The notes beneath the pieces were generated by a model. That model made no database searches and was not told the DNA's origin. It was given only the letters and a program-made list of their open reading frames with translations. The translations under genes were made by a program, and so were the position numbers. A DNA stretch of 64,000 nucleotides, from the NCBI GenBank assembly GCA_963793425.1, contig CAWCAG010000001.1, positions 192,001-256,000 on the forward strand, given 5' to 3'. The stretch comes from an uncultured cyanobacterium (GTDB lineage Bacteria > Cyanobacteriota > Cyanobacteriia > Cyanobacteriales > CAWCAG01). Below, one piece after another: positions 5,202 through 30,867 of this stretch (positions are counted from its first letter, which is position 1; each line of letters begins with the position of its first letter).

Positions 5202-8200
5202 TTAATCTGATTCCCCAATTAAAGTAAAAGCGGCCCAGTTTCTTGGTTCAGGGTGCTGCTTCATAGTTGCTAACATCGCTTGTCGCAATGCTTGTGCCTT
5301 ATCTGGGTTTTTCTCTAATTGGTTGTAAAACTCCACCATTAACTCTCCTGTAGGAGCATCAGGCACTGCCCAGAGGGATACCAATACACTAGGAACCCCG
5401 GCACTAATAAAGGAACGGGATAAACCAATTACCCCATCTCCGGTAATCTTACCTCTGCCTGTGTTACAAGCGCTCAAAACCACTAAATTAGCTTGCAGGT
5501 TCATATCGTAAATTTCCGTCGCTGTCAGGAGTCCATTGCCTGGGGAAGAGTCTGGGGCTAAGGCGATTCCACTTCCCATTCCTTGTACGTCGTCTAGTAA
5601 GCCATGGGTGGCGAGGTGAATTAAGTTAGCGCTTGCCATTTGCTTAACTATGGCTGATTTAGTTGCTTGGTTACCAGTGAGGGCTTGGGTATTTAATAGA
5701 GGTGCGATCGCATTTGCTTCTTTTTCTGCACCAGGAAGGGAGGCTAGTTGTATGGCGGGTTCGAGGGGGTCATCTTTTACCTTGGGCATGGTGGGGTTGC
5801 CTACTACTAAGGCATCTCCGGTTGTTGTTGCTGCTTTTGTTTTTGTTCTCTGGTTAGTTGCAAAGTCTGGATAGAAGGGGCGGTGAGGATGCTGTGTTTT
5901 TCGATGAGGTAGTTTCCCTGTTCATCTTGCAGGGCAGGAAAGGGAGTGAGGAAGAGGGCTTGTTGGGGGATGAAGATGACTTTTTCGTTGGGGTCATCGG
6001 GTAGTAAGTCGGCGATGGGGTCAATGAGGATTTGGTGGAGGCGGTTTAAACCATTTTTGTAGGGTTCAAATCCTGGTCTGGGTTCGATGGCAATTATGTC
6101 GCGGTTGAGGCTACGGAGGGGTAAGCCCTGTACTCCCAAGGCGATGCGGGTGTGGGTAACAAGTTTGGCTAAGGAGGTGTTTTCTTTTGAGGTTACTGCG
6201 ACGGAAAGTTATTTCTCCGGTGGGCTTGACTATCCAGATAAAAAGTTCTGCTTCTTTGCCTTTGTCGTAAATTAGGGAGTATTCAACTAAGGTTGCATTT
6301 TGTTGTTGAGCAATTTGTTTGATTTGTTCTATGTTTGGTGGTGTTATGATTGTTGGGAAGGAGTTATCTTGGTTAGCTAGGCGTTTGGCTAATAGTTCGA
6401 CAAATGCTCTTGCACGACCTCTTTCTGAAATTTCAAGGGCTTCATCGGTTTTATTTTGGGCAATGAGAACTCGTTGTAGACTTCGGTAGGTATAGTTTGT
6501 TCTTCAAAAATAGATATTTTAAAGTCATGTTGTCACCAAAAAACTCCAGAGACTCTCCAAAATATTTGAGGGCTTGTTGTAAAGATTTTTCTGCCTCTTC
6601 AAGTTGACCAAGTTCAAATAAAGATGTTCCTATATTGTTGAGCGAGTGTTCATCTCTTTCTTCTGTGTTTTCAGCCTTTTCTAAACTTTGCCGAGAAAAA
6701 GTTATAGCTTGGTGTAATCTCCAAGAGATAGGTAAGCACTACCTAAATTGCACCAAATAGAAAGTTCTCCAGAGAGACGGTTATTTCTTATTGCGATGGC
6801 TAACGCTTGTTTATAATATAGCCTTTCTCGGACTGATGAGGTACATTTCCACTAGCCACTAGCCAAAGCGCAAAAACCAGGCTGTACCTCACTAGCCTAA
6901 GAATCGCTATAATCAATTGCCTGAGCGTAATTTTTTTGTCTTCTGTAAGCAGTACCCAAATTATCTAAAGCTATCCTTTCTGTATTATAATCCTCAATCT
7001 CTTGGGCAATTTCCAAAGCTCCACTTAACATTTTTATAGCTGGCTCATAGTATCCTAACTCTCTGTAGTTATAACCAAGATTAAGCAAAGCTTTCATTCC
7101 CATTTCAGAATCATTTATTTCTTCAGCAATAGTTAAAGCCTTCTCAAGATATGCGATCGCTTGCTGATTCTTTCCTATGAATCCGTATGGAACTGCTAAG
7201 TTTAGTAAAAAAGAATCCTTCTTGTTTTCTATTATCTATCTCTTGAGCAATTGATAAAGCTTGTTGATAAACTTGAATTGCTTTAGCGTAATATCTAATT
7301 TCGTTATAGGCATTTCCCAAGTTCATTAAGGTTAAAGCTTGACCTTGGCGATCACCCATTTCTTGAAGTATAGTAATCGTTTCTTCCCAAGATTGTATTG
7401 CTGCTTGAAACTGACCACTACTATACTGCTCAAATCCTTGTTGAAAAAGTTGTTCAGCTTTTGCTTGTTGTGGAGAATTTGATGAGGCTTCTTGAGCCGT
7501 TAATAAGCCTTGTTGTGCCGACTTTTCCATTTCAGAATCATTAATTTGTTGAGCAATAATTAAACTTTCTTGGAAAAACTCAATCGCTTTATTATAATGA
7601 CCTTTAATTCTGTAAATAAGTCCCAAGTACTAGGTAATAGCCTTCCTTGAGATCAATAGCCTATCTCCCTATCAATTGTTAAAATTGCTGATAAAACTAA
7701 TGGCTTTTTCGTACTACTTAACGAAGAGTAAGTATTCCCAAAAGCTCATTAGGGAATCGACCTTCCTTGGCGATTATCGATTTCTCTATCAATAGTTAAA
7801 TTTTGTTGAAAAAACTAATGGCTTTTTCGTATTGCACTCATAAGAGTAAGCAAGTCCTAAATTACTTAGGGAATCTACTTCTCGGTCAATACCATTTCCC
7901 TTTTAGTAGTTAAAGATTGTTGATAAAACTTAAGGCTTTTTCGTATTGCCTTAATGAATAGTAAACCTTCCCAAATTATTTAGAGAATTAACCTCTCCTT
8001 GGAGATTACCAATTTCTCGATAAATCTTTAAAGATTGCTGAAAAGATAATATAGCTTCTTGAAACTGATTAGCCTTAGCTTGCTGAATTCCTCGCTGAAG
8101 AAGTCGCTTTGCTTCTACCTGCTTTTCTTCTATAGTTTGCCCTTGCACCGGAGACAAAAAGAAACGAACAGACAAACCCCCAAAACTAAAATTAGTCAGA

Positions 8201-23656: not shown

Positions 23657-26600
23657 ATGAAATTTGCATCTTCCCCCTTCTGGTTAGCTTTAAGCTTAAC
23701 CAGTGCTATCTTCACTTTCCCTACCACGCCCAAATCACCCCTGACAAAACCCTTGGAAGAGAAACTTCTGTTGTTACTCCCCTAAACTCCCAGCTTCAAC
23801 GCCTTGACGGAGGTGCTTTGCGAGGAGTTAATCTCTTTCATAGTTTCTTAGAATTTAACATCAAAGAAGGTCATGGCGCTTATTTTGCTAACCCCGCAGC
23901 AGTAGAGAACATCTTTAGCAGAGTAACAGGAAACAACCCTTCCCATTTATTCGGAACATTAGGAGTATTAGGAGAAGCGAACTTATTCTTCCTCAACCCT
24001 AACGGCATCATCTTTGGTAGCAACGCAACCTTAGACTTGCAGGGTGCTTTTGTCGCTAGTACTGCTGATAGTTTTGTTTTTCCTGGAGGGAATGTATTTA
24101 GTGCCACCAATCCAGAATCTGCCCCTTTATTAACAGTGAGTGCTATTGCTCCTGTTGGTTTACAATTTGAAGGAAGTGGAGGAACAATAATTAACCAAGG
24201 AAACTTAGCAGTTAATGCTGGGGAGGGTTTGAGTTTAGTGGGAGGAACGGTGGTTAACCAAGGAATTTGTTAGCGCCGGGGGGAAACATTAGTGTAGTGG
24301 CAGTGCCAGAAGGGAGGTTAGTTGAATTAGGAAGTCAAGGAGAGGTTGTCGGTTGGCAGGAGTTAACGGCGAGTGTTACAGATGCAGTTGATATTAAATC
24401 GGGAACGGCGGTTATTTCTGGTGAAATTGATGTAGTTAATCAAGAAGGAATTGGGGGAGAGGTTCAAGTATTAGGGGAGATTGTAGAAGTTATTGGGGTA
24501 AAGATTGATGCTTCTGGGGTTGATGGTGGCGGTACTGTATTAATTGGTGGAGATTATCAGGGTAAAGGGGATGTCCCCAATGCTTTGCAGACTTATATTA
24601 GTGAAGATGTCTGTGATTATAGCTGATGGGTTAGGAAATAGTGAAGGTGGTAAAGTAATTGTCTGGGCAGACGAAACCACAAACTTTTATGGCAATGTTT
24701 CTGCCCGTGGTGCAGGTACTGGGGATGGGGGCTTTGTGGAGATATCAGGGAAGGAAACCCTGTTGTTTCGGGGAGAAGTTGATACTAGTTCTGAACTTGG
24801 TAATACTGGGGACTTTACTTCTTGATCCTGATAATATTACCATCGAAAATGGTAATGGTACTGGCGCTCCTCAAACCATCTCAGAAAGACAATTAGAGGC
24901 TCAGGCAAGAAGTAACAATGTTATTGTGCAAGCTAACGATACTATTACTGTCAAAAACCTCTTTGATAACGAATTAGATTTATCCGGGGGTTCAGGAATA
25001 GTAGTTTTTACTGCCGATGCAGATGGTGATGGTGTGGGTGACTTTGTGATGGAAGATACCGCAGATGCAATCCTGGCTGAGGAAAAGGATATAACCATTT
25101 CTGGGGTTAATATAACTACTGGTGAAATCAATACTGATTCCACTTCTTTCTTTTTATTCAGTGCAGGAGATGCAGGAGATATTAAGCTGGAAGCAACAGG
25201 AGATATCTCCACTAGCGATCTTAATGCTCGCTCTGTAGCCAATGGCTTGTTGGGAGATGCTGGATATGGAGGAGAAATTACCCTCAAGGCTGGGGGCGAT
25301 ATTTCTAGTAGTCAGGTTAACTCTGGCTCTGTTTCCCTTCGTGGAAATTCTAAGGATGCAGGAGTAGTTACCCTTGAAGCCGGGGGGAATATTTCAACAA
25401 CTCAAGTGTTTTCAGCCTCTGGCTCTTTCGGAAATGGAAACGTGGGAAGTGGGAACTTGATTACCATGAGGGCTGGAGGAGATATTATTGCCAGTGCTGG
25501 GGTTGCTTCAGGCTCCCTTAGCAGTGGAAATGGAAATGCGGGAGATGGCAGGGCTATCACATTGAAGGCTGGGGGTAATATTTCCACTGCTTATTTCCTT
25601 TCTGCTTCTTTTTCCAATGGAAATGGAAACGTGGGAAATGGAGGGGCGATTGATGTTGAGGCTGGCGGTGATATCTTTGCTAGTGGTGAGGTTAATTCTT
25701 CCTCTTATTCTACTAGAGATGGAAATACTCAACATGGAGGGACAATTGCCCTGAAAGCTGGCAGCCATATTTTCACTGGCATTGTTGACTCCAGATCTAC
25801 TTCTGTTGGAGATGGAGATACTCAATACGGAGGAGACATTTCTCTTAATGCTGGAAGTGATATCTCCACTAGTGGTACTATCACTTCTTCCTCTATTTCT
25901 ACCGGAGATGGGAATACTCAACGTGGGGGAGACATCCGCATTAAAGCTGGCCGTGATATATCCACTGGCACTATCACTGCTTCCTCTATTGCTTTTGGAC
26001 GTGGGGATTCAAGAGATGGAGGAAATGTTAACCTTAAAGCTGGTAGCAATATCTCCTCTGACTTTGCTATCAGTTCTGGTTCTATTGCCTTTGGAGGTGG
26101 AGACTTGGGAGGGGGAGGAGACATTAACATAGAAACTGCTGGAGGAGACATCAAACTTCCAACTAGGATAGGAAATGTCTTATTTCCTGGGATAGGAGAA
26201 GTAAGTAGTGCTGGTAAAACTGGAGGGGACATCAACATTACTAGCTCAGCTACTACTCTAAAATTGGATGACCTTTACATCTTGAGTGGAGGAAGTACAT
26301 CGGCAGGAAGCATTTCCATCACGGCTCCTGCCATGACTCTCAATAACACTCAAATACAGACTGGTCTTATACCAGAGGGAACATTTGGGAAAATTTCAGA
26401 TGGAGTAGTAGGAGATATTTCTCTCAATGCCCAAGAAAATATTACTCTCAATAGAAGTGGCATTACCGCCACCCTAGAACCGAGTACGAGAGGTCAAGTA
26501 GGTAAGATCAGCTTGGTTGCACCAACCCTCAATGTCAACGAATTCTCCCTCATTGAAACCACAACCTTTGGTGAAGGAAATGCTGGTGATGTAGAGATTA

Positions 26601-28567
26601 TGGTAAACAATCTCTTTTTAGATCGTAGCAATATTCAAAGTCTCACGGCTGGGGTAGGGAATGCAGGAAAAGTAAATGTTACTGCTAATCAAGCTGTTCA
26701 ATTAACCAACCAAAGTAATATTGCTACCGTTGCCAACTCTCGCTCTCAAGGGCAAGGAAACAATATTACCATTAACTCTCCCCAACTTTCTTTAACTGGA
26801 GGTTCCCAGTTGCAAGCGTTAACAAAGAGTAAAGGGGATGCAGGTAATGTTTTGCTGAATATCCAAGACAGACTAACCATCTCTGGTGTTAATGCAGAAG
26901 GTTTTCTTAGTGGTGTGTTTACTTCCTCCGGAGATGAACAAAATAGGAATACGGGCAAGGGAGGAGATATCACCATTAACAACTCTGGTACTGTTACCCT
27001 CAGTGACGGAGGAGTCTTAAGCGCCCAAACTTTTAGCAATTCCCCAGGAGGAGACATTAAAGTCAACGCCAACAGACTCAACCTACAAAGTGGAGGACAA
27101 ATTTTAACTAGTACCCTTAGTGGAGGTAAAGCAGGGGAAGTTATTGTCAATGCCAGAGAAAGTCTCAACATCAACGGCAGTGATCCTAACTTTGCTAATC
27201 GTCCTCAACAACCTAAATCTTTAAGACAAGGGGTACAAGCTACTCCTTTCAATCTATCTAAATTAATTACGGAAACAGAACCCAATAATAGTCCAGGAGA
27301 AGCTTTGTTTCTCAGTGATAATCTCTTTTCCGTTGACACTGTTAACAATCCTAACCCCAACGTAGAACTCGCTAACAAGATTCCTTATGTTTCAATCCAG
27401 GATCAAGGGGACAATACTAACACCTCAGACTATTATGCTCTTGAAGTGACAGCAGGAACAAGGGGGATCTTTGATATTGATAATGTCTTAAATGGCCAAG
27501 GTAAACCCATAACAGATAGTTCTAATGTGGAGAGTGTAGAGCTTTTACAAGTTCAAAATGGACAGTTGAAAGTGATATGGGAAAACCCATTTAGCCAAAC
27601 ATCTCTAGGTGCTGGGGGAAGTAACAGTACTTCTGATCCTTATCTCCGCTATACCTTTACTGAAGGTGGAACTATCTACCTCAAAGTTAACAAATCTACT
27701 AACGCTGTTCCCAATCAAAGCAACTATACCCTCAACATCTCTTTAGAAAGTCCCAATGTAACAGGTAGCAGCATTACTACTGGCGGTGCTGCTAGCGGCA
27801 TCTTTGCCCAAACTAATCCCGGTACAACGGGAGACTCCGGTAGTGTTTTTGTCAATACCCCAACCCTGAACATTAGAAATGGGGGACAACTTGCTGTTAA
27901 CTCTCAAGGAGATGGCATCGGAGGCAACGTTAACATCGCCGCAGGTGACATCAACCTGTTTAACCAAGGGACAATCACGGCTGCAACAGCAAGGACTAGT
28001 GGAGGTAACATCAACCTCAATGTTCCCGGTACAATCCTCATGCGAAACAACAGCCTCATTAGCGCGGCAGCAGGGGGTGATGGCAGTGGTGGCAACATCA
28101 CCCTCAATATTGGTTTTATTGTTGCAGTCCCCAATGAAAATAGCGATGTAATTGCCCGTGCTGCCCAAGGCAAAGGTGGTCAAATCATCATTAACGCCAC
28201 TGGGGTTTATGGCTTTGTTGGAGACAGTCGTTTCTTAACTCCCTTTTCTGATTTAAACGCTTCTTCTGATGTTGCGGGTAACGAAGGGACTGTGGAAATC
28301 GATGTAGATTTTGATGTTACTCAAGGGTTGAATAGTTTGCCCGATGATCGGGTGAATACGGAGGTTAATGACAGTTGTGAGGCGATAGAAAAAGATTCAA
28401 CAGTTGCCTTTTTTGATATTGGTAAAGGAGGAACTTTAGCTAACCCAGATGAGCCTTTAGATGCTGATAGTTGGGAATGGATTAGTTTAGAGGAAGAGGA
28501 AGTAGTTGCAGAAGAAGAAAAAGAAATTATTGCTAGAGTAGAGGTTGAAAAGCCGTGTGTATTTTAG
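23657..28567 (+). CDS. Filamentous haemagglutinin-like TpsA exoprotein (several frameshifts in first ~1.2 kb)
   Basis: Signal peptide MKFASSPFWLAL, AQITPDKTLG, NLFHSF, FFLNPNGIIFG TPS domain, Gly-rich beta-helix repeats; frameshifts near 23727, 24267, 24612 and 24810. Confidence 0.85.
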
Positions 28568-28604
28568 GTAATAAGTAATAGGTAATAAGTAATAAGTAAT
28601 AAGT
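28565..28604 (+). repeat. 7-mer tandem array TA(A/G)GTAA, left arm of a long inverted repeat
   Basis: TAGGTAA TAAGTAA TAGGTAA TAAGTAA TAAGTAA TAAGT. Confidence 0.95.
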
Positions 28605-28698
28605 TAAGAATGTTCTTTTAATTTTTGGTTTAGGAGTAATTTTGAAGTTATAGCTTGGTGATAGTTGTTTTGTAGTTGAAGAAGTGATGATTTTGATT

Positions 28699-29070
28699 AT
28701 GGGTGTTTCTCATTTAACTATTCAGGAGCGGACTGAAAATTTTGCTGTTCGTGTAATTAAAGCTTATTGTGAACTTAATAGGAGGAATTTTGATGATGCT
28801 GGAAAGATATTGGCGAAGCAGTTTCTTAGGAGTGGTACAAGTATTGGAGCTAATTGTGCAGAGGCAATTTATGCTCAATCTAACAAAGACTTTGTATCTA
28901 AATATTCTATTGCTTTAAAAGAAGCCTCGGAAACCCAGTACTGGATTAAAATCATGATTAAATCTCAACTTCTTCCCAAACAAAAGTTTTCAAATATGCA
29001 ACAAGAAATAATTGAAATAATCAAAATACTAACCACCACTATCAACAAACTGAAATCTAAGCAAGCCTAA
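28699..29070 (+). CDS. Four-helix bundle protein (23S rRNA IVS / Avd-like family)
   Basis: IQERTENFAVRVI, QFLRSGTSIGAN, SKYSIALKEASETQYW; ATG 28699 preferred over GTG 28684. Confidence 0.9.
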   Translation: MGVSHLTIQERTENFAVRVIKAYCELNRRNFDDAGKILAKQFLRSGTSIGANCAEAIYAQSNKDFVSKYSIALKEASETQYWIKIMIKSQLLPKQKFSNMQQEIIEIIKILTTTINKLKSKQA

Positions 29071-29126
29071 AAACCACCAAATACTTACTTGTTAATCCCT
29101 ATTAAAAATATAATGTAAAGTTCAAA

Positions 29127-29166
29127 ACTTATTACTTATTACTTATTACTTATTACTTATTACTTA
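29127..29166 (+). repeat. 7-mer tandem array ACTTATT, right arm of the inverted repeat
   Basis: (ACTTATT)5 ACTTA, reverse complement of 28565-28604 at 38/40 positions. Confidence 0.95.
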
Positions 29167-29169
29167 AAA

Positions 29170-30867
29170 ATGTTCTTAGCTCAAATTCCTCCGCATATTC
29201 CTCCCCAGGATGTTATTCCACCTCTACAACAACCTTCTCCTGTTCCTGAACAACCAGAAACACCCCCTGCACCAGAGGAAGTGCTTCCCGATCCCACTAT
29301 GCCAATTCCTCCAGAAATATTGCTGGATAGCAAGGAAACGATTACGGTTACTGAGTTTGAGTTTGTTGATAATACAATCTTCTCTTCGGAACAGTTAGCT
29401 AAGGAAATCACCGATAAGTATCTCAATCAAACTCTGTCTCTGCAACAACTCCTTAACATTGCTGCTGAAGTTGCCCAGTTTTACGCTGCGGCTGGTTATA
29501 GTACTTCTGGGGCAGTGATTTCTTTACCAGAAGTTACTCGTCAAGAGGGTAAGGGAGTGGTGAGAATTATTGTCATTGAAAGCAAGTTAGAAGCAATTAA
29601 TCTGGTTCCGGTGGGGAAGCAACGCCTTAACCCTAATTACGTGCGATCGCGCCTAGAAGTGGAACCAGGAGACATTCTCAATGTCAGCAAATTACAAGAG
29701 CAACTGCAACTGCTACAACTCAATCCTTTAATTACCAGGGTTGCAGCCCAATTGAGTGAAGGTTCACAACCTGGTTTGAATCAGTTGGAACTTCAGGTGG
29801 TAGAAGCACCTTCTTTTAATTTGCCTTTAAGTATTAATAACGGACGTTCCCCCAGTGTAGGCAGTTTCCAGCGCCAGGTTACGGCGAGGGAAGGAAACTT
29901 ACTGGGGTTGGGAGATGCCCTTAGTGTTGGTTATGGCAATAGCGATGGTAGCAATGTCTGGAGTTTTGGTTATACTCTGCCGGTGAATTCTGGCAACGGT
30001 ACACTGGGCTTTAACTACAGCTACACAACCAGCGATGTAATTGAACCACCTTTTGAAGCGGTTAACATTGAGTCTGAGTCTCAAAACCATGAACTGACAT
30101 TCCGGCAACCTGTGGTGCAAAGCATTCGTCAACAGACCTTTCAGGAATTAGCTTTAGGGGTGACAGCTTCCTGGCGCGATAGTCAAACCTTTTTATTTGG
30201 TTTTCCTTTTCCTCTTTCTCCGGGGGCAGATGACGATGGTAAAACTAATGTTTTTGCTTTGCGGTTGTTCCAGGAGTGGACGCAACAGGATGCCCGTCAA
30301 GTGCTAGCTTTTCGCTCGGAGTTTAGTTTTGGTTTAGATGCTTTTAATTCTACTGTGAACGAGACTCCAGCAGGCTCAGAAGTAGTTCCTGATAGTCGTT
30401 TCTTTTCCTGGCGAGGACAGGGACAGTGGATTAGGTTGTTGGGGGAGGATACTTTGTTTCTGGTACGGGGTAACCTACAAATGGCAAACAAAACTTTACT
30501 CTCCGCAGAAGAGTTTGCTTTAGGGGGTTTTGGTAGTGTGCGGGGTTATCGGCAGAATGTACTTTCTACAGACAACGGCTTTTTTGCCTCTGCTGAACTC
30601 CAGTTACCGATTCTCAAAGTTCCAGAAGAAGGGGTTTTGCAAATTATTCCCTTCTTAGATTATGGCGTAGGCTGGAACAGTTCGGATGTTGCCAACCCAG
30701 ATCCACAAACTTTGATTGGTACTGGTTTGGGTTTACAATGGCAGGATAGAGCCGGGATTTTTAGCGCTCGTTTTGATTGGGGCATTCCTTTAGTTGATGT
30801 GGATAATAGGGAGAGAACGTGGCAGGAGAATGGGCTTTATTTTTCGGTGCAATGGAGGGGTTTTTAA
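29170..30867 (+). CDS. ShlB/FhaC/HecB family two-partner secretion (TpsB) outer-membrane transporter
   Basis: Pro-rich N-terminus, POTRA-like NTIFSSEQL, SVRGYRQ motif, C-terminal aromatic residue. Confidence 0.92.
   Translation: MFLAQIPPHIPPQDVIPPLQQPSPVPEQPETPPAPEEVLPDPTMPIPPEILLDSKETITVTEFEFVDNTIFSSEQLAKEITDKYLNQTLSLQQLLNIAAEVAQFYAAAGYSTSGAVISLPEVTRQEGKGVVRIIVIESKLEAINLVPVGKQRLNPNYVRSRLEVEPGDILNVSKLQEQLQLLQLNPLITRVAAQLSEGSQPGLNQLELQVVEAPSFNLPLSINNGRSPSVGSFQRQVTAREGNLLGLGDALSVGYGNSDGSNVWSFGYTLPVNSGNGTLGFNYSYTTSDVIEPPFEAVNIESESQNHELTFRQPVVQSIRQQTFQELALGVTASWRDSQTFLFGFPFPLSPGADDDGKTNVFALRLFQEWTQQDARQVLAFRSEFSFGLDAFNSTVNETPAGSEVVPDSRFFSWRGQGQWIRLLGEDTLFLVRGNLQMANKTLLSAEEFALGGFGSVRGYRQNVLSTDNGFFASAELQLPILKVPEEGVLQIIPFLDYGVGWNSSDVANPDPQTLIGTGLGLQWQDRAGIFSARFDWGIPLVDVDNRERTWQENGLYFSVQWRGF

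What the first reader, a model, noticed from the sequence alone, without database searches (positions are those of the whole stretch)
28562..29169. Four-helix-bundle gene enclosed in a 44-bp stem of inverted 7-mer arrays that joins the tpsA stop to the tpsB start
Seen: 28562-28605 (T3 + TA(A/G)GTAA array) is complementary to 29126-29169 ((ACTTATT)5 array + A3). The only two DNA mismatches are G-U pairs in the sense RNA. The left arm contains the tpsA stop (28565-28567) and the right arm ends 1 nt before the tpsB ATG (29170). The loop encodes a four-helix-bundle protein. Established: this family was first described inside excised intervening sequences of 23S rRNA and is related to the RNA-binding Avd of diversity-generating retroelements. 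Inference: an IVS-like protein-coding element living in an mRNA, which loops itself out or is cut by RNase III. It may be a selfish cassette built from STRR repeats or a post-transcriptional switch for a secretion operon.
Basis: partly seen in the sequence, partly recalled or inferred. Interest (0 to 1): 0.85.

Follow-up and report, generated by a model that had tools for sequence, protein, structure and literature searches.

The report
Heptamer-armed four-helix-bundle gene cassette
A small conserved gene sits in the loop of a 44-base hairpin built from 7-base repeats between two secretion genes, and this same design recurs across cyanobacteria, linking their long-unexplained heptamer repeats to the protein first found inside ribosomal-RNA intervening sequences.

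Summary
In detail: 28562-28605 and 29126-29169 are 44-nt inverted heptamer arrays with two G:T mismatches. They enclose a PF05635/TIGR02436 four-helix-bundle (4HB) gene between the tpsA stop and the tpsB ATG.

In a sample from the same cyanobacterial order, 66 of 91 PF05635 loci are bracketed by inverted period-7 arrays, against 2 of 520 control positions. Among close relatives of this protein in named cyanobacteria the figures are 42 of 55 against 0 of 286.

New here:
- The repeat unit tracks the protein subfamily; this subfamily keeps T-R-R-GTAA arms.
- The protein is under purifying selection (dN/dS 0.13).
- There is no target-site duplication.
- Arms usually start a few bases after the stop of a co-directional upstream gene.
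- One orthologous Nostoc gene junction shows empty, array-only, loaded and loop-inverted alleles.

Not supported:
- A general G-U wobble bias (69 vs 76, and 61 vs 79).
- A role as a switch specific to the TPS operon. The sister species has xisHI at this junction, tpsA is broken, and TpsB lacks a signal peptide.

RNase III cutting remains an inference from the Coxiella 23S IVS. This scan has reported the same design before on other genomes (8 earlier notes). My paper searches found no description of the rule.

The parts
24659..28567 (+). 3' part of the tpsA-like exoprotein gene (last open frame, stop TAG 28565-28567). The gene is split: the TPS secretion domain lies in a separate frame at 23818-24273.
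   Evidence: ORF list; PF05860 on 23818-24273 and no Pfam family on 24659-28567; the sister-species orthologue ends with the same KPCVF-TAG.
28562..28605 (+). Left arm: TTTT plus about 5.5 heptamers (TAGGTAA/TAAGTAA). It overlaps the tpsA stop codon.
   Evidence: It is 86% identical to the left arm of the homologous cassette in another genus, while the DNA outside it is 38% identical.
28606..28698 (+). Left spacer between arm and start codon. It is poorly conserved, and its first bases form the left copy (28603-28617) of a 14-nt direct repeat, TTAA(G/A)AATGTTCTT.
   Evidence: 27% identity with many gaps against the G002 cassette; direct repeat D1; no promoter-like site on the + strand.
28699..29070 (+). 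Four-helix-bundle protein gene of 123 aa from ATG 28699 (alternative starts GTG 28684 and ATG 28687).
   Evidence: PF05635 9.2e-22; TIGR02436 3.6e-27; PDB 2rld 3.8e-22; the family profile also hits 2gsc at 2.8e-30; dN/dS 0.13 against the G002 copy.
29071..29125 (+). Right spacer between the stop codon and the right arm.
   Evidence: 57% identity to the G002 cassette.
29126..29169 (+). Right arm: AACTTATT, an (ACTTATT) array, then AAAA. It ends 1 nt before the tpsB ATG and overlaps the right copy (29164-29177) of the 14-nt direct repeat.
   Evidence: It is 93% identical to the G002 right arm, and homology ends at its outer end, with 24% identity outside.
29170..30867 (+). tpsB (ShlB/FhaC-type transporter with a POTRA_2 domain). 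It begins MFLAQIPP and has no signal peptide.
   Evidence: PF03865, PF08479 and PF01103. Homologues in other genera carry a signal peptide before the LAQ.P..IPPQD motif.

Best explanation
The feature is one copy of a widespread cassette type: a promoter-less PF05635/TIGR02436 four-helix-bundle gene lying in the roughly 0.5-kb loop of a hairpin whose arms are inverted arrays of about five tandem heptamers. ORF-bearing intervening sequences of 23S rRNA have the same design. Here the cassette sits at a protein-gene junction, from the tpsA stop to the tpsB start, and is not a device specific to that operon.

Shown: the architecture is systematic across cyanobacteria. The protein is under purifying selection. 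The arms are far better conserved than the spacers, and their unit tracks the protein subfamily. The cassette is a DNA-level unit: it occupies unrelated sites in sister genera, leaves no target-site duplication, and at one orthologous Nostoc junction occurs as empty, array-only, loaded and loop-inverted alleles.

Inferred: (a) the cassette moves or is exchanged by recombination through its repeat arms, which read the same on both strands, so either orientation can result. (b) It is mostly transcribed by read-through from the co-directional upstream gene. (c) In that transcript the arms pair into a 44-bp duplex that RNase III cuts, releasing the 4HB message and separating the neighbours' messages, as in the Coxiella IVS. 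(d) The 4HB protein recognises its own heptamer unit.
For: Architecture. The sample was the first 110 PF05635 places listed for 121 genomes of the order. I dropped 9 places lying under 500 nt from a contig start and 1 from the own genome, leaving 100, of which 91 were evaluable. The inverted-repeat score was >=16 in 66 of 91, against 2 of 520 control positions in the same loci, 11 of 91 for direct orientation and 7 of 91 for cross-locus pairing; medians were 22 against 9. The best period was 7 in 60 of 66 arms.

Independent set. Of 64 loci of close relatives in named cyanobacteria, 55 were evaluable; 42 scored >=16 against 0 of 286 controls. Of those 42, 41 had a unit within 2 substitutions of TAAGTAA (12, 23 and 6 at distance 0, 1 and 2). 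Nine of the 42 had perfectly complementary arms, including arms where both sides carry TGAGTAA/TTACTCA.

In the own genome, 2 further PF05635 copies out of 5 have heptamer arms of other units.

Protein is functional: 99 of 121 residues are identical to the G002 copy, with dS 0.82 and dN/dS 0.13. 135 of the 150 listed matches have no internal stop.

Arms are constrained: against G002 the arms are 86% and 93% identical, the CDS 81%, the spacers 27% and 57%, and the outside DNA 38% and 24%.

Protein and unit go together: mean protein identity is 0.77, 0.64, 0.47 and 0.33 at unit distance 0, 1, 2 and 3, and 0 of 1000 label shuffles reach this.

DNA-level unit. The G002 cassette lies between polA-like and GT2 genes, and homology ends at the outer arm ends. 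No direct repeat of >=10 nt was found in any of 4 flank configurations in 52 cassettes. At the Nostoc site, the loop in L147 and L158 is inverted relative to the same flanks as in L146 and six other loci. The loop is 93.6% identical while the flanks are 84-85%. Of 37 matching genomes out of 61 searched: 11 have abutting flanks, 9 have gaps of 30-138 nt, 7 have 200-643 nt, 6 are loaded forward, 1 is loaded inverted, and 3 are unresolved or match the interior only (20 alleles read).

Read-through. The upstream neighbour is co-directional in 40 of 51 cassettes. The left arm starts a median of 3 nt after the end of the upstream frame, within +/-10 nt in 27 of 51. No + strand promoter-like site lies in 28300-29400.

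RNase III analogy. In the Coxiella IVS a 28-bp stem containing tandem heptamers (GACAGAT) upstream of the S23p ORF is cut by RNase III in vitro (passages of PMC4990558). The own genome has 4 RNase III-domain genes.
Against: There is no RNA evidence: no RNA run was listed, so transcription, pairing and cleavage are all untested.

Mismatches between arms show no excess of G:U over A:C on the gene's sense strand: 69 against 76 (p 0.62) and 61 against 79 (p 0.15). Selection on a sense RNA stem that tolerates wobble should produce such an excess.

Eleven of 51 cassettes, including the G002 homologue and the common Nostoc allele, are antisense to the upstream neighbour. These cannot rely on read-through.

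Protein and unit tracking each other may be simple co-inheritance, because relatives share labels.

Arrays do not need the gene. The sister species G001 has 103 pattern words and G020 has 231, yet neither has a close homologue. Conversely G025 and G032 have the gene but almost no arrays.

In one genome (G083) the multiplying unit is bounded by outer 16-nt terminal inverted repeats, not by the heptamer arms.
Confidence: 0.6

Rival explanations
1. DNA-only element. The arms matter as DNA: as recombination or inversion substrates, or as cruciform or hairpin structures on single-stranded DNA. The RNA stem and RNase III cutting play no part. The 4HB protein is a DNA-binding factor for the repeats.
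For: The complementarity is strand-symmetric, with no G:U bias. The loop is inverted between species at one orthologous site, with breakpoints in the arms. The cassette interior is more similar than the flanks (93.6% against 84-85%), which suggests exchange of DNA. Cargo-less hairpins exist in the own genome: 8 inverted against 0 direct same-unit pairs at gaps under 150 nt.
Against: The cassette is placed flush after the stop of a co-directional gene in most cases, which points to dependence on host transcription. The one experimentally studied relative (the Coxiella IVS) is processed as RNA. Inversion is an expected by-product of any inverted repeat and does not exclude an RNA role.
Confidence: 0.25
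2. A post-transcriptional switch serving the two-partner-secretion operon. The stem brings the tpsA stop and the tpsB start together and controls tpsB translation or mRNA stability.
For: The arms touch the tpsA stop codon and end 1 nt before the tpsB ATG. A 44-bp stem next to the start codon could affect initiation (inference).
Against: The same-genus genome has an oppositely oriented xisI/xisH pair in a 757-nt spacer at this junction instead. tpsA is broken in both species. TpsB here and in G001 lacks the signal peptide present in five homologues examined. Of 164 related cassette loci searched, only L150 has TPS-like neighbours. Placement flush on stop/start junctions is a general habit of the cassette.
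Confidence: 0.06
3. Chance: two of the many STRR arrays of this genome happen to flank a small gene in inverted orientation.
For: There are 112 arrays of this unit in 5.28 Mb. Housekeeping genes are also bracketed by same-unit arrays, with inverted (29) and direct (24) pairs similarly common within 3 kb.
Against: 66 of 91 and 42 of 55 homologous genes in other genomes have the same flanks, against 2 of 520 and 0 of 286 control positions. The homologous cassette in G002 shares arms and gene as one block.
Confidence: 0.02
4. An Avd-type accessory gene of a diversity-generating retroelement.
For: PF05635 is reported as the Pfam family that resembles Avd (passage of PMC10053308).
Against: No reverse transcriptase lies on the window's contig. 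There are 7 RVT_1 matches in the genome, and the nearest to any 4HB copy is about 36 kb away. The neighbours are tpsA and tpsB. A profile of the family finds 2gsc and 2rld but no Avd chain at E<=1.
Confidence: 0.02

Closest known systems
ORF-bearing intervening sequences (IVS) of 23S rRNA (Coxiella burnetii S23p IVS; Leptospira)
   Same: A PF05635-type ORF in the loop of a long terminal-inverted-repeat stem. In Coxiella, tandem heptamers (GACAGAT, copy number varying between strains) lie in the 5' part, and RNase III cuts at the start of the first repeat. The element depends on host transcription and is thought to be selfish or mobile (passages of PMC4990558).
   Different: This one lies between protein-coding genes, not in helix 9, 25 or 45 of 23S rRNA. 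Rfam finds no family here. The arms are longer and made entirely of heptamers. The protein is clearly under selection, whereas the Coxiella authors argue their ORF is decaying. Processing is untested here.
STRR / heptamer simple repeats of cyanobacteria and Xanthomonas (Rehm et al. 2015, PMC4692102; STRR as named by Mazel et al. 1990, recalled)
   Same: Intergenic tandem heptamers present in tens to hundreds of copies. In Xanthomonas, 70-75 convergent pairs able to form stem-loops are reported (passages).
   Different: That paper contains no occurrence of 'S23', 'intervening sequence' or 'four helix', and it says Nostoc has only a few paired repeats. Here the pairs are tied to one gene family and the unit to its subfamilies.
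TAACTGA intergenic direct repeats of Beggiatoaceae, cyanobacteria and Bacteroidetes (MacGregor 2015, PMC4679880)
   Same: Heptamer arrays ending flush on start codons, with a post-transcriptional role proposed (abstract and passages). The outer terminal repeat of the G083 composite element begins with TAACTGA.
   Different: These are direct repeats with a single inverted example, and no link to a four-helix-bundle gene is made (0 occurrences).
Integron gene cassettes, and MITE/REPIN-type hairpin repeats (recalled analogies)
   Same: Promoter-less single-gene modules bounded by hairpin-forming repeats and expressed from upstream. Non-autonomous hairpins lacking the gene far outnumber the gene-bearing forms.
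   Different: No integrase, RAYT or transposase, no conserved recombination site, and no target duplication. The arm sequence differs between cassette lineages.
Avd of diversity-generating retroelements
   Same: A small four-helix-bundle protein assigned to the same Pfam or CDD neighbourhood (passage of PMC10053308).
   Different: No adjacent RT and no sequence-level match to an Avd chain.

Membership tests
PF05635 / TIGR02436 four helix bundle protein (23S rRNA IVS protein) | HMM score above the curated cut-offs | tested here: met
   PF05635 77.7 bits against 33.8; TIGR02436 94.7 bits against 24.
PF05635 / TIGR02436 four helix bundle protein (23S rRNA IVS protein) | Sequence similarity to solved members (2rld, 2gsc) | tested here: met
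   2rld 3.8e-22. A profile of 12 members hits 2gsc at 2.8e-30 and 2rld at 3e-28, each entry holding 5 chains. The fold and oligomer of this protein itself were not modelled.
ORF-bearing 23S rRNA intervening sequence | Inserted in a 23S rRNA helix | tested here: not met
   It lies between the tpsA stop and the tpsB start. Rfam gives no rRNA or other family in 27500-30000.
ORF-bearing 23S rRNA intervening sequence | PF05635 ORF enclosed by terminal inverted repeats that form a long stem | tested here: met
   44-nt arms, and the minimum-energy fold pairs them.
ORF-bearing 23S rRNA intervening sequence | Excision from the precursor by RNase III | not testable with these tools
   No RNA run was listed. 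Four RNase III-domain genes are present in the genome.
STRR (short tandemly repeated repetitive) heptamer arrays | Tandem 7-nt units dispersed in many copies in a cyanobacterial genome | tested here: met
   628 period-7 arrays, 112 with this unit. The T-R-R-GTAA x3 pattern occurs 315 times, against 7 for the reversed control.
DGR accessory protein Avd | Adjacent reverse transcriptase and template/variable repeats | tested here: not met
   None of the 7 RVT_1 matches lies on contig C1. The neighbours are TPS genes. Template/variable repeats were not specifically searched for.
Transposon / MITE | Terminal repeats conserved among copies, target-site duplication, transposase in cis or trans | tested here: not met
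   Arm units differ between lineages. No direct repeat of >=10 nt in 52 cassettes in four configurations. Exception: the G083 composite has outer 16-nt terminal repeats and at least 10 copies.
Invertible DNA switch (site-specific invertase type) | Orientation polymorphism between inverted repeats, plus a dedicated invertase | tested here: inconclusive
   Both orientations exist between Nostoc species at one site. Within-strain flipping and an invertase were not tested, and no orientation variant of the window's own copy was seen.

The most novel reading that the evidence does not exclude
The four-helix-bundle proteins are the sequence-specific partners of the heptamer (STRR) repeat families. 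Each protein subfamily reads its own 7-nt unit; one possibility is a pentameric ring on about five tandem units, which matches the median arm length of 35.5 nt. The gene-bearing hairpins would then be the autonomous form of a protein-plus-repeat system, and the hundreds of cargo-less arrays and hairpins at gene junctions would be its non-autonomous copies or targets. That would give a function both to STRRs and to the IVS protein. It would also define a new kind of mobile element that spreads by its repeat arms rather than by a transposase.
Probability: 0.25. Interest if true: 0.9.

Novelty: new variant of a known kind. Interest (0 to 1): 0.75.

Why it matters
Two old puzzles meet here. One is what cyanobacterial heptamer repeats (STRR) are for. 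The other is what the protein encoded in 23S rRNA intervening sequences does.

The evidence shows that the IVS design is not an rRNA curiosity. It is the standard packaging of this gene family at ordinary gene junctions across cyanobacteria: 66 of 91 and 42 of 55 loci. The repeat unit follows the protein subfamily over deep divergence, so a specific protein-repeat interaction becomes a concrete hypothesis that a bench experiment can test. The Nostoc allelic series (empty ATGA-overlap junction, array-only, loaded, inverted) provides natural before-and-after states for studying insertion and its effect on neighbouring, translationally coupled genes.

Practically, these cassettes split operons, abut or replace gene ends (here the region where the TpsB signal peptide should be encoded), and probably break assemblies. 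Annotation pipelines should therefore recognise them.

Tried and rejected
- RNA evidence: the look-up of sequencing runs listed no RNA holder.
- Target-site duplication: the window has a 14-nt direct repeat (28603-28617 and 29164-29177). No comparable repeat (>=10 nt) occurs in any of four flank configurations in 52 other cassettes. It is not conserved in the G002 cassette. I left it unexplained.
- G-U wobble bias was tested twice and not found.
- 'G-rich arm upstream of the gene' (49 of 60): I first read this as polarity relative to transcription. I then realised that a 5'-U...rcU-3' hairpin reads the same on both strands. It is therefore a property of the hairpin class and says nothing about gene direction.
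- Synteny test for the G002 insertion site in the own genome: the two neighbours lie on different contigs and no informative empty site was found.
A single protein was used instead, so phyla outside cyanobacteria were not sampled here.
- Promoter scan: no + strand site. This is weak evidence only.
- Rfam: one chance-level hit, E 0.44.
- 'Each array family needs its cognate gene': only partly borne out. 5 of 8 genomes with a close homologue, against 8 of 113 without one, have >=50 net pattern words (Fisher p 0.0003, not corrected for relatedness). There are clear exceptions both ways.
- Literature: searches found no paper linking PF05635/S23p genes to inverted heptamer arrays outside rRNA. Subscription journals are not covered.
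- The 2 positive control positions are other inverted-repeat elements. The one in L119 has 156-nt arms. The other was not examined.
Full report
**1. The observation.**

I read the region directly.
- The left arm, 28562-28605, is TTTT followed by about 5.5 units of TAGGTAA/TAAGTAA.
- The right arm, 29126-29169, is AACTTATT, an (ACTTATT) array, then AAAA.
- They are reverse complements over 44 nt. At the only two exceptions a G in the left arm faces a T in the right arm.
- The stop TAG of the long upstream frame lies inside the left arm (28565-28567).
- The right arm ends one base before ATG 29170.

The neighbouring genes are as described.
- The downstream ORF is a ShlB/FhaC-type transporter with a POTRA_2 domain.
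- A TPS secretion domain lies upstream at 23818-24273.
- The loop ORF is PF05635 and TIGR02436, and resembles the solved structure 2rld.

The fold supports the stem.
- The minimum-energy fold of 28540-29200 pairs the arms, z = -4.8 against 20 shuffles.
- The arm duplex alone is -53.5 kcal/mol as RNA.

The description is therefore accurate.

**2. Is it more than chance?**

Within this genome alone the case is weak.
- There are 628 period-7 arrays of at least 18 nt, and 112 carry this very unit.
- Same-unit pairs within 3 kb are about as often inverted (29) as direct (24), and they bracket ordinary housekeeping genes.

The answer comes from other copies and other genomes. Of the 5 PF05635 matches in the own genome:
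- a pseudogene at C5:1885200 is flanked by (TTTATCA)3 and (TGATAAA)n;
- a truncated copy at C5:1194338 is preceded by a (CAGGGAG) array;
- the remaining two have weak flanks or none.

I then sampled the GTDB order.
- 90 of 121 genomes have a PF05635 match.
- From the first 110 listed places I dropped 9 that lay under 500 nt from a contig start and 1 from the own genome. I fetched the remaining 100 with 4-kb flanks.
- I scored the best ungapped inverted match (+1/-2) between the 350 nt on either side of the Pfam match.
- 91 loci were evaluable, and 66 scored >=16 (51 scored >=20). The median was 22.
- In the same loci, 2 of 520 control positions at offsets of 1.7-3.3 kb scored >=16. The control median was 9.
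- For the direct orientation, 11 of 91 scored >=16.
- When left flanks were paired with right flanks of other loci, 7 of 91 scored >=16.
- In 60 of the 66, the arm's best period is 7.
- The units differ widely (AAGAAGG, AGTGCTG, AGGGGAT, ACCAGTT, AACAATT, AAGAGGC, ATGGGGC and others).

**3. A second, independent sample of this protein's own subfamily.**

- The search for related loci with the window's protein returned 64 loci in named cyanobacteria, at 36-83% identity (mostly 62-83%). They include Moorena, Calothrix, Nostoc, Rivularia, Symploca, Okeania, Dapis, Planktothrix, Pseudanabaena, Chamaesiphon and Xenococcaceae.
- 55 were evaluable. 42 scored >=16, against 0 of 286 control positions.
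- 41 of the 42 have a unit within two substitutions of TAAGTAA: 12 identical, 23 one step away (mostly TGAGTAA, GAAGTAA or TAGGTAA) and 6 two steps away.
- Nine of the 42 have perfectly complementary arms. These include lineages in which both arms have changed together, TGAGTAA facing TTACTCA.

**4. The arms are constrained and go with the protein.**

Against the homologous cassette of a second genus of the same family (G002; alignment A1):

| Segment | Identity |
|---|---|
| Left arm | 86% |
| Right arm | 93% |
| CDS | 81% |
| Left spacer | 27% |
| Right spacer | 57% |
| DNA outside the left arm | 38% |
| DNA outside the right arm | 24% |

- The coding sequence has dS 0.82 and dN/dS 0.13, so the protein is under purifying selection and neutral sites are heavily diverged.
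- In the order-wide sample I compared 56 cassettes in pairs from different genomes. Mean protein identity falls with the distance between arm units:

| Unit distance | Mean protein identity |
|---|---|
| 0 | 0.77 |
| 1 | 0.64 |
| 2 | 0.47 |
| 3 or more | 0.28-0.34 |

- None of 1000 shuffles of unit labels reaches the observed contrast.

This shows that gene and arms are inherited as one unit and that the arm sequence, not only its pairing, is conserved. It does not by itself prove molecular recognition.

**5. RNA or DNA?**

This does not generalise.
- On the gene's sense strand, G:U-type against A:C-type mismatches are 69 against 76 in 60 cassettes.
- They are 61 against 79 in the 42 close relatives.

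The complementarity is therefore strand-symmetric.

I also found that the 5' arm is the G-rich one in 49 of 60 cassettes. Because a hairpin 5'-U...rcU-3' reads identically on both strands, this describes the hairpin class and carries no information on transcription direction.

Evidence for dependence on host transcription is positional.
- In 52 non-redundant cassettes the upstream neighbour is co-directional in 40 of 51.
- The left arm begins a median of 3 nt after the upstream open frame ends, within +/-10 nt in 27 of 51.
- In the window no + strand promoter-like site precedes the gene.
- However, 11 of 51 are antisense to the upstream gene, as is the G002 copy, which lies between polA-like and GT2 genes on the other strand.

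No RNA run was listed for the window. Transcription and processing therefore remain inference from the Coxiella IVS. There, RNase III cuts a 28-bp stem at the first of several tandem heptamers upstream of the S23p ORF (passages of PMC4990558). The own genome encodes four RNase III-domain proteins.

**6. The cassette is a DNA-level module.**

(a) The window and G002 copies share arms and gene, but their neighbours are unrelated, and homology stops at the outer arm ends.

(b) The same-genus genome G001 has orthologous tpsA and tpsB. Between them it carries a minus-strand XisI gene and a truncated XisH gene, and only about 1.7 heptamer units follow the identical KPCVF-TAG end of tpsA.

(c) No target-site duplication is seen in any configuration in 52 cassettes.

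(d) One Nostoc junction gives an allelic series.
- Seven loci (L146, L160, L161, L162, L164, L174, L192) share both flanks. L147 and L158 have the same flanks but with the loop inverted.
- Between L146 and L147 the flanks are 83.7-84.6% identical in reverse orientation. The 512-nt interior is 93.6% identical in forward orientation, and the breakpoints lie in the arms.
- I searched the flanks in 61 genomes of that genus, and 37 matched:

| Allele type | Genomes |
|---|---|
| Flanks abutting (gap 1-7 nt) | 11 |
| Gap of 30-138 nt | 9 |
| Gap of 200-643 nt with no match to the cassette interior | 7 |
| Loaded, forward | 6 |
| Loaded, inverted | 1 |
| Flanks on different contigs | 1 |
| Interior match only, elsewhere in the genome | 2 |

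- I read 20 of these alleles. In 5 of the 6 abutting alleles read, the two flanking genes overlap as ATGA on the opposite strand. In the sixth a TAA is followed directly by ATG.
- The short-gap alleles mostly carry arrays of other heptamers: CTGCCYC in four and AATTACG in four, some interrupted by small GC-rich insertions.

Gene junctions are thus hot spots that different heptamer arrays, and sometimes a loaded cassette in either orientation, come to occupy.

(e) The own genome has cargo-less hairpins: 8 inverted against 0 direct same-unit pairs at gaps under 150 nt.

The simplest mechanism consistent with (a)-(e) is exchange or insertion by recombination through the repeat arms, which are symmetric and so permit both orientations. 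This is inference. A dedicated enzyme is not excluded.

**7. Does the array family need the gene?**

I counted a T-R-R-GTAA x3 pattern in the 121 genomes and searched them for close homologues of the window protein.
- 5 of 8 genomes with a homologue at >=57% identity have at least 50 net pattern words.
- 8 of 113 genomes without such a homologue do (Fisher p = 0.0003, uncorrected for relatedness).
- The exceptions are plain. G001 has 103 words and G020 has 231 with no close homologue. G025 and G032 have the gene and essentially no arrays.

The association is real but loose. Arrays persist without the gene.

**8. What it is not.**

- It is not a DGR Avd. None of the 7 RVT_1 matches is on the window's contig, and a family profile finds 2gsc and 2rld but no Avd chain at E<=1.
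- It is not a true rRNA IVS.
- It is not a classical transposon.
- It is unlikely to be a regulator evolved for the TPS operon:
  - tpsA is split over at least three frames here, and is broken at another place in G001.
  - TpsB starts MFLAQIPP. Five homologues from other genera carry a signal peptide before the corresponding LAQ.P..IPPQD motif, and G001's copy starts MVLHLLLPTLAQIPP.
  - Only 1 of 164 related cassette loci has TPS-like neighbours.
  - The junction looks like an insertion hot spot that has eaten into the 5' end of tpsB.

**9. Comparison with what is known, and novelty.**

- The closest described thing is the ORF-bearing 23S rRNA IVS. The Coxiella paper even records the heptamers.
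- Heptamer repeats of Nostoc and Xanthomonas, including convergent pairs, and TAACTGA repeats have been described, but without any mention of this gene family: 0 occurrences of 'S23', 'intervening sequence' or 'four helix' in either paper.
- Eight searches of the held library found no paper stating the general rule.
- This scan itself has reported the same design on other genomes in 8 earlier notes. I reached the architecture before reading them, and I tested several of their claims here.
- I classify it as a new variant of a known kind: an IVS-type cassette living at protein-gene junctions.

**10. Verdict.**

- Observation: confirmed.
- Interpretation: partly supported. The IVS-like STRR-built cassette is supported, RNase III processing is untested, and the operon switch is unlikely.
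- Best explanation confidence: 0.6.
- Interest: 0.75.

Noticed in passing
window 23818-28567: The tpsA-like gene is split over at least three frames: the TPS domain ORF 23818-24273, then 24267-24626, then 24659-28567. The same-genus orthologue is also broken, at a different place (L135 ORF 1848-6557, then 6830-7447). The locus may be decaying, or the assemblies may carry frameshift errors.
   Followed up: partly
window 29170-29260: TpsB begins MFLAQIPP with no signal peptide. Five homologues in other genera have one before the LAQ.P..IPPQD motif. The heptamer array upstream is open in frame and would encode a hydrophobic (TYYLLLI)n stretch, but it contains no ATG, GTG or TTG start.
   Followed up: partly
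L128:790-1417 (G001, same junction): In the sister species the tpsA-tpsB spacer holds a minus-strand XisI gene (4.6e-41) and a truncated XisH gene (64 of 134 profile positions) instead of the cassette.
   Followed up: yes
window 28603-28617 and 29164-29177: A 14-nt direct repeat, TTAA(G/A)AATGTTCTT, lies just inside the left arm and across the right arm end and tpsB start. It is not found in the G002 cassette or in 52 other cassettes, and it remains unexplained.
   Followed up: partly
G000:C1:298794-298859, C5:1691970-1692040, C9:22306-22378, C9:578002-578048: These are cargo-less hairpins of the TAAGTAA family with loops of 9-13 nt. In all 4, one arm is the TAAGTAA type and the other is the complement of TAGGTAA. 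Every unit therefore carries one transition mismatch: G:U on one strand and A:C on the other.
   Followed up: partly
L110, L046, L055, L056 and others (G083): There are at least 10 copies, at 96-99% identity, of a composite element. Outer 16-nt terminal inverted repeats beginning TAACTGA enclose a 4HB cassette with AGGTTTC-type arms. Most copies have a nested MITE-like insertion of about 243 nt inside the 4HB ORF, and L110 is uninterrupted.
   Followed up: partly
L212, L213 (Nostoc junction alleles); G000:C5:1885200 downstream arm: Heptamer arrays are themselves interrupted by small GC-rich insertions, for example GCGTAGC-containing pieces. This suggests very small elements that target the arrays.
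   Followed up: no
L119:6240-6981: One of the two positive control positions is a different inverted repeat with 156-nt arms (86% complementary) and a 430-nt loop holding only short ORFs.
   Followed up: partly
L137 (Moorena producens 3L record), L157, L081: Some cassettes have greatly expanded arms of about 180-210 nt (inverted-repeat scores 114, 72 and 108).
   Followed up: no
listing: At least 9 of the first 110 PF05635 matches lie within 500 nt of a contig start. This would be expected if the repeat arms break short-read assemblies.
   Followed up: no
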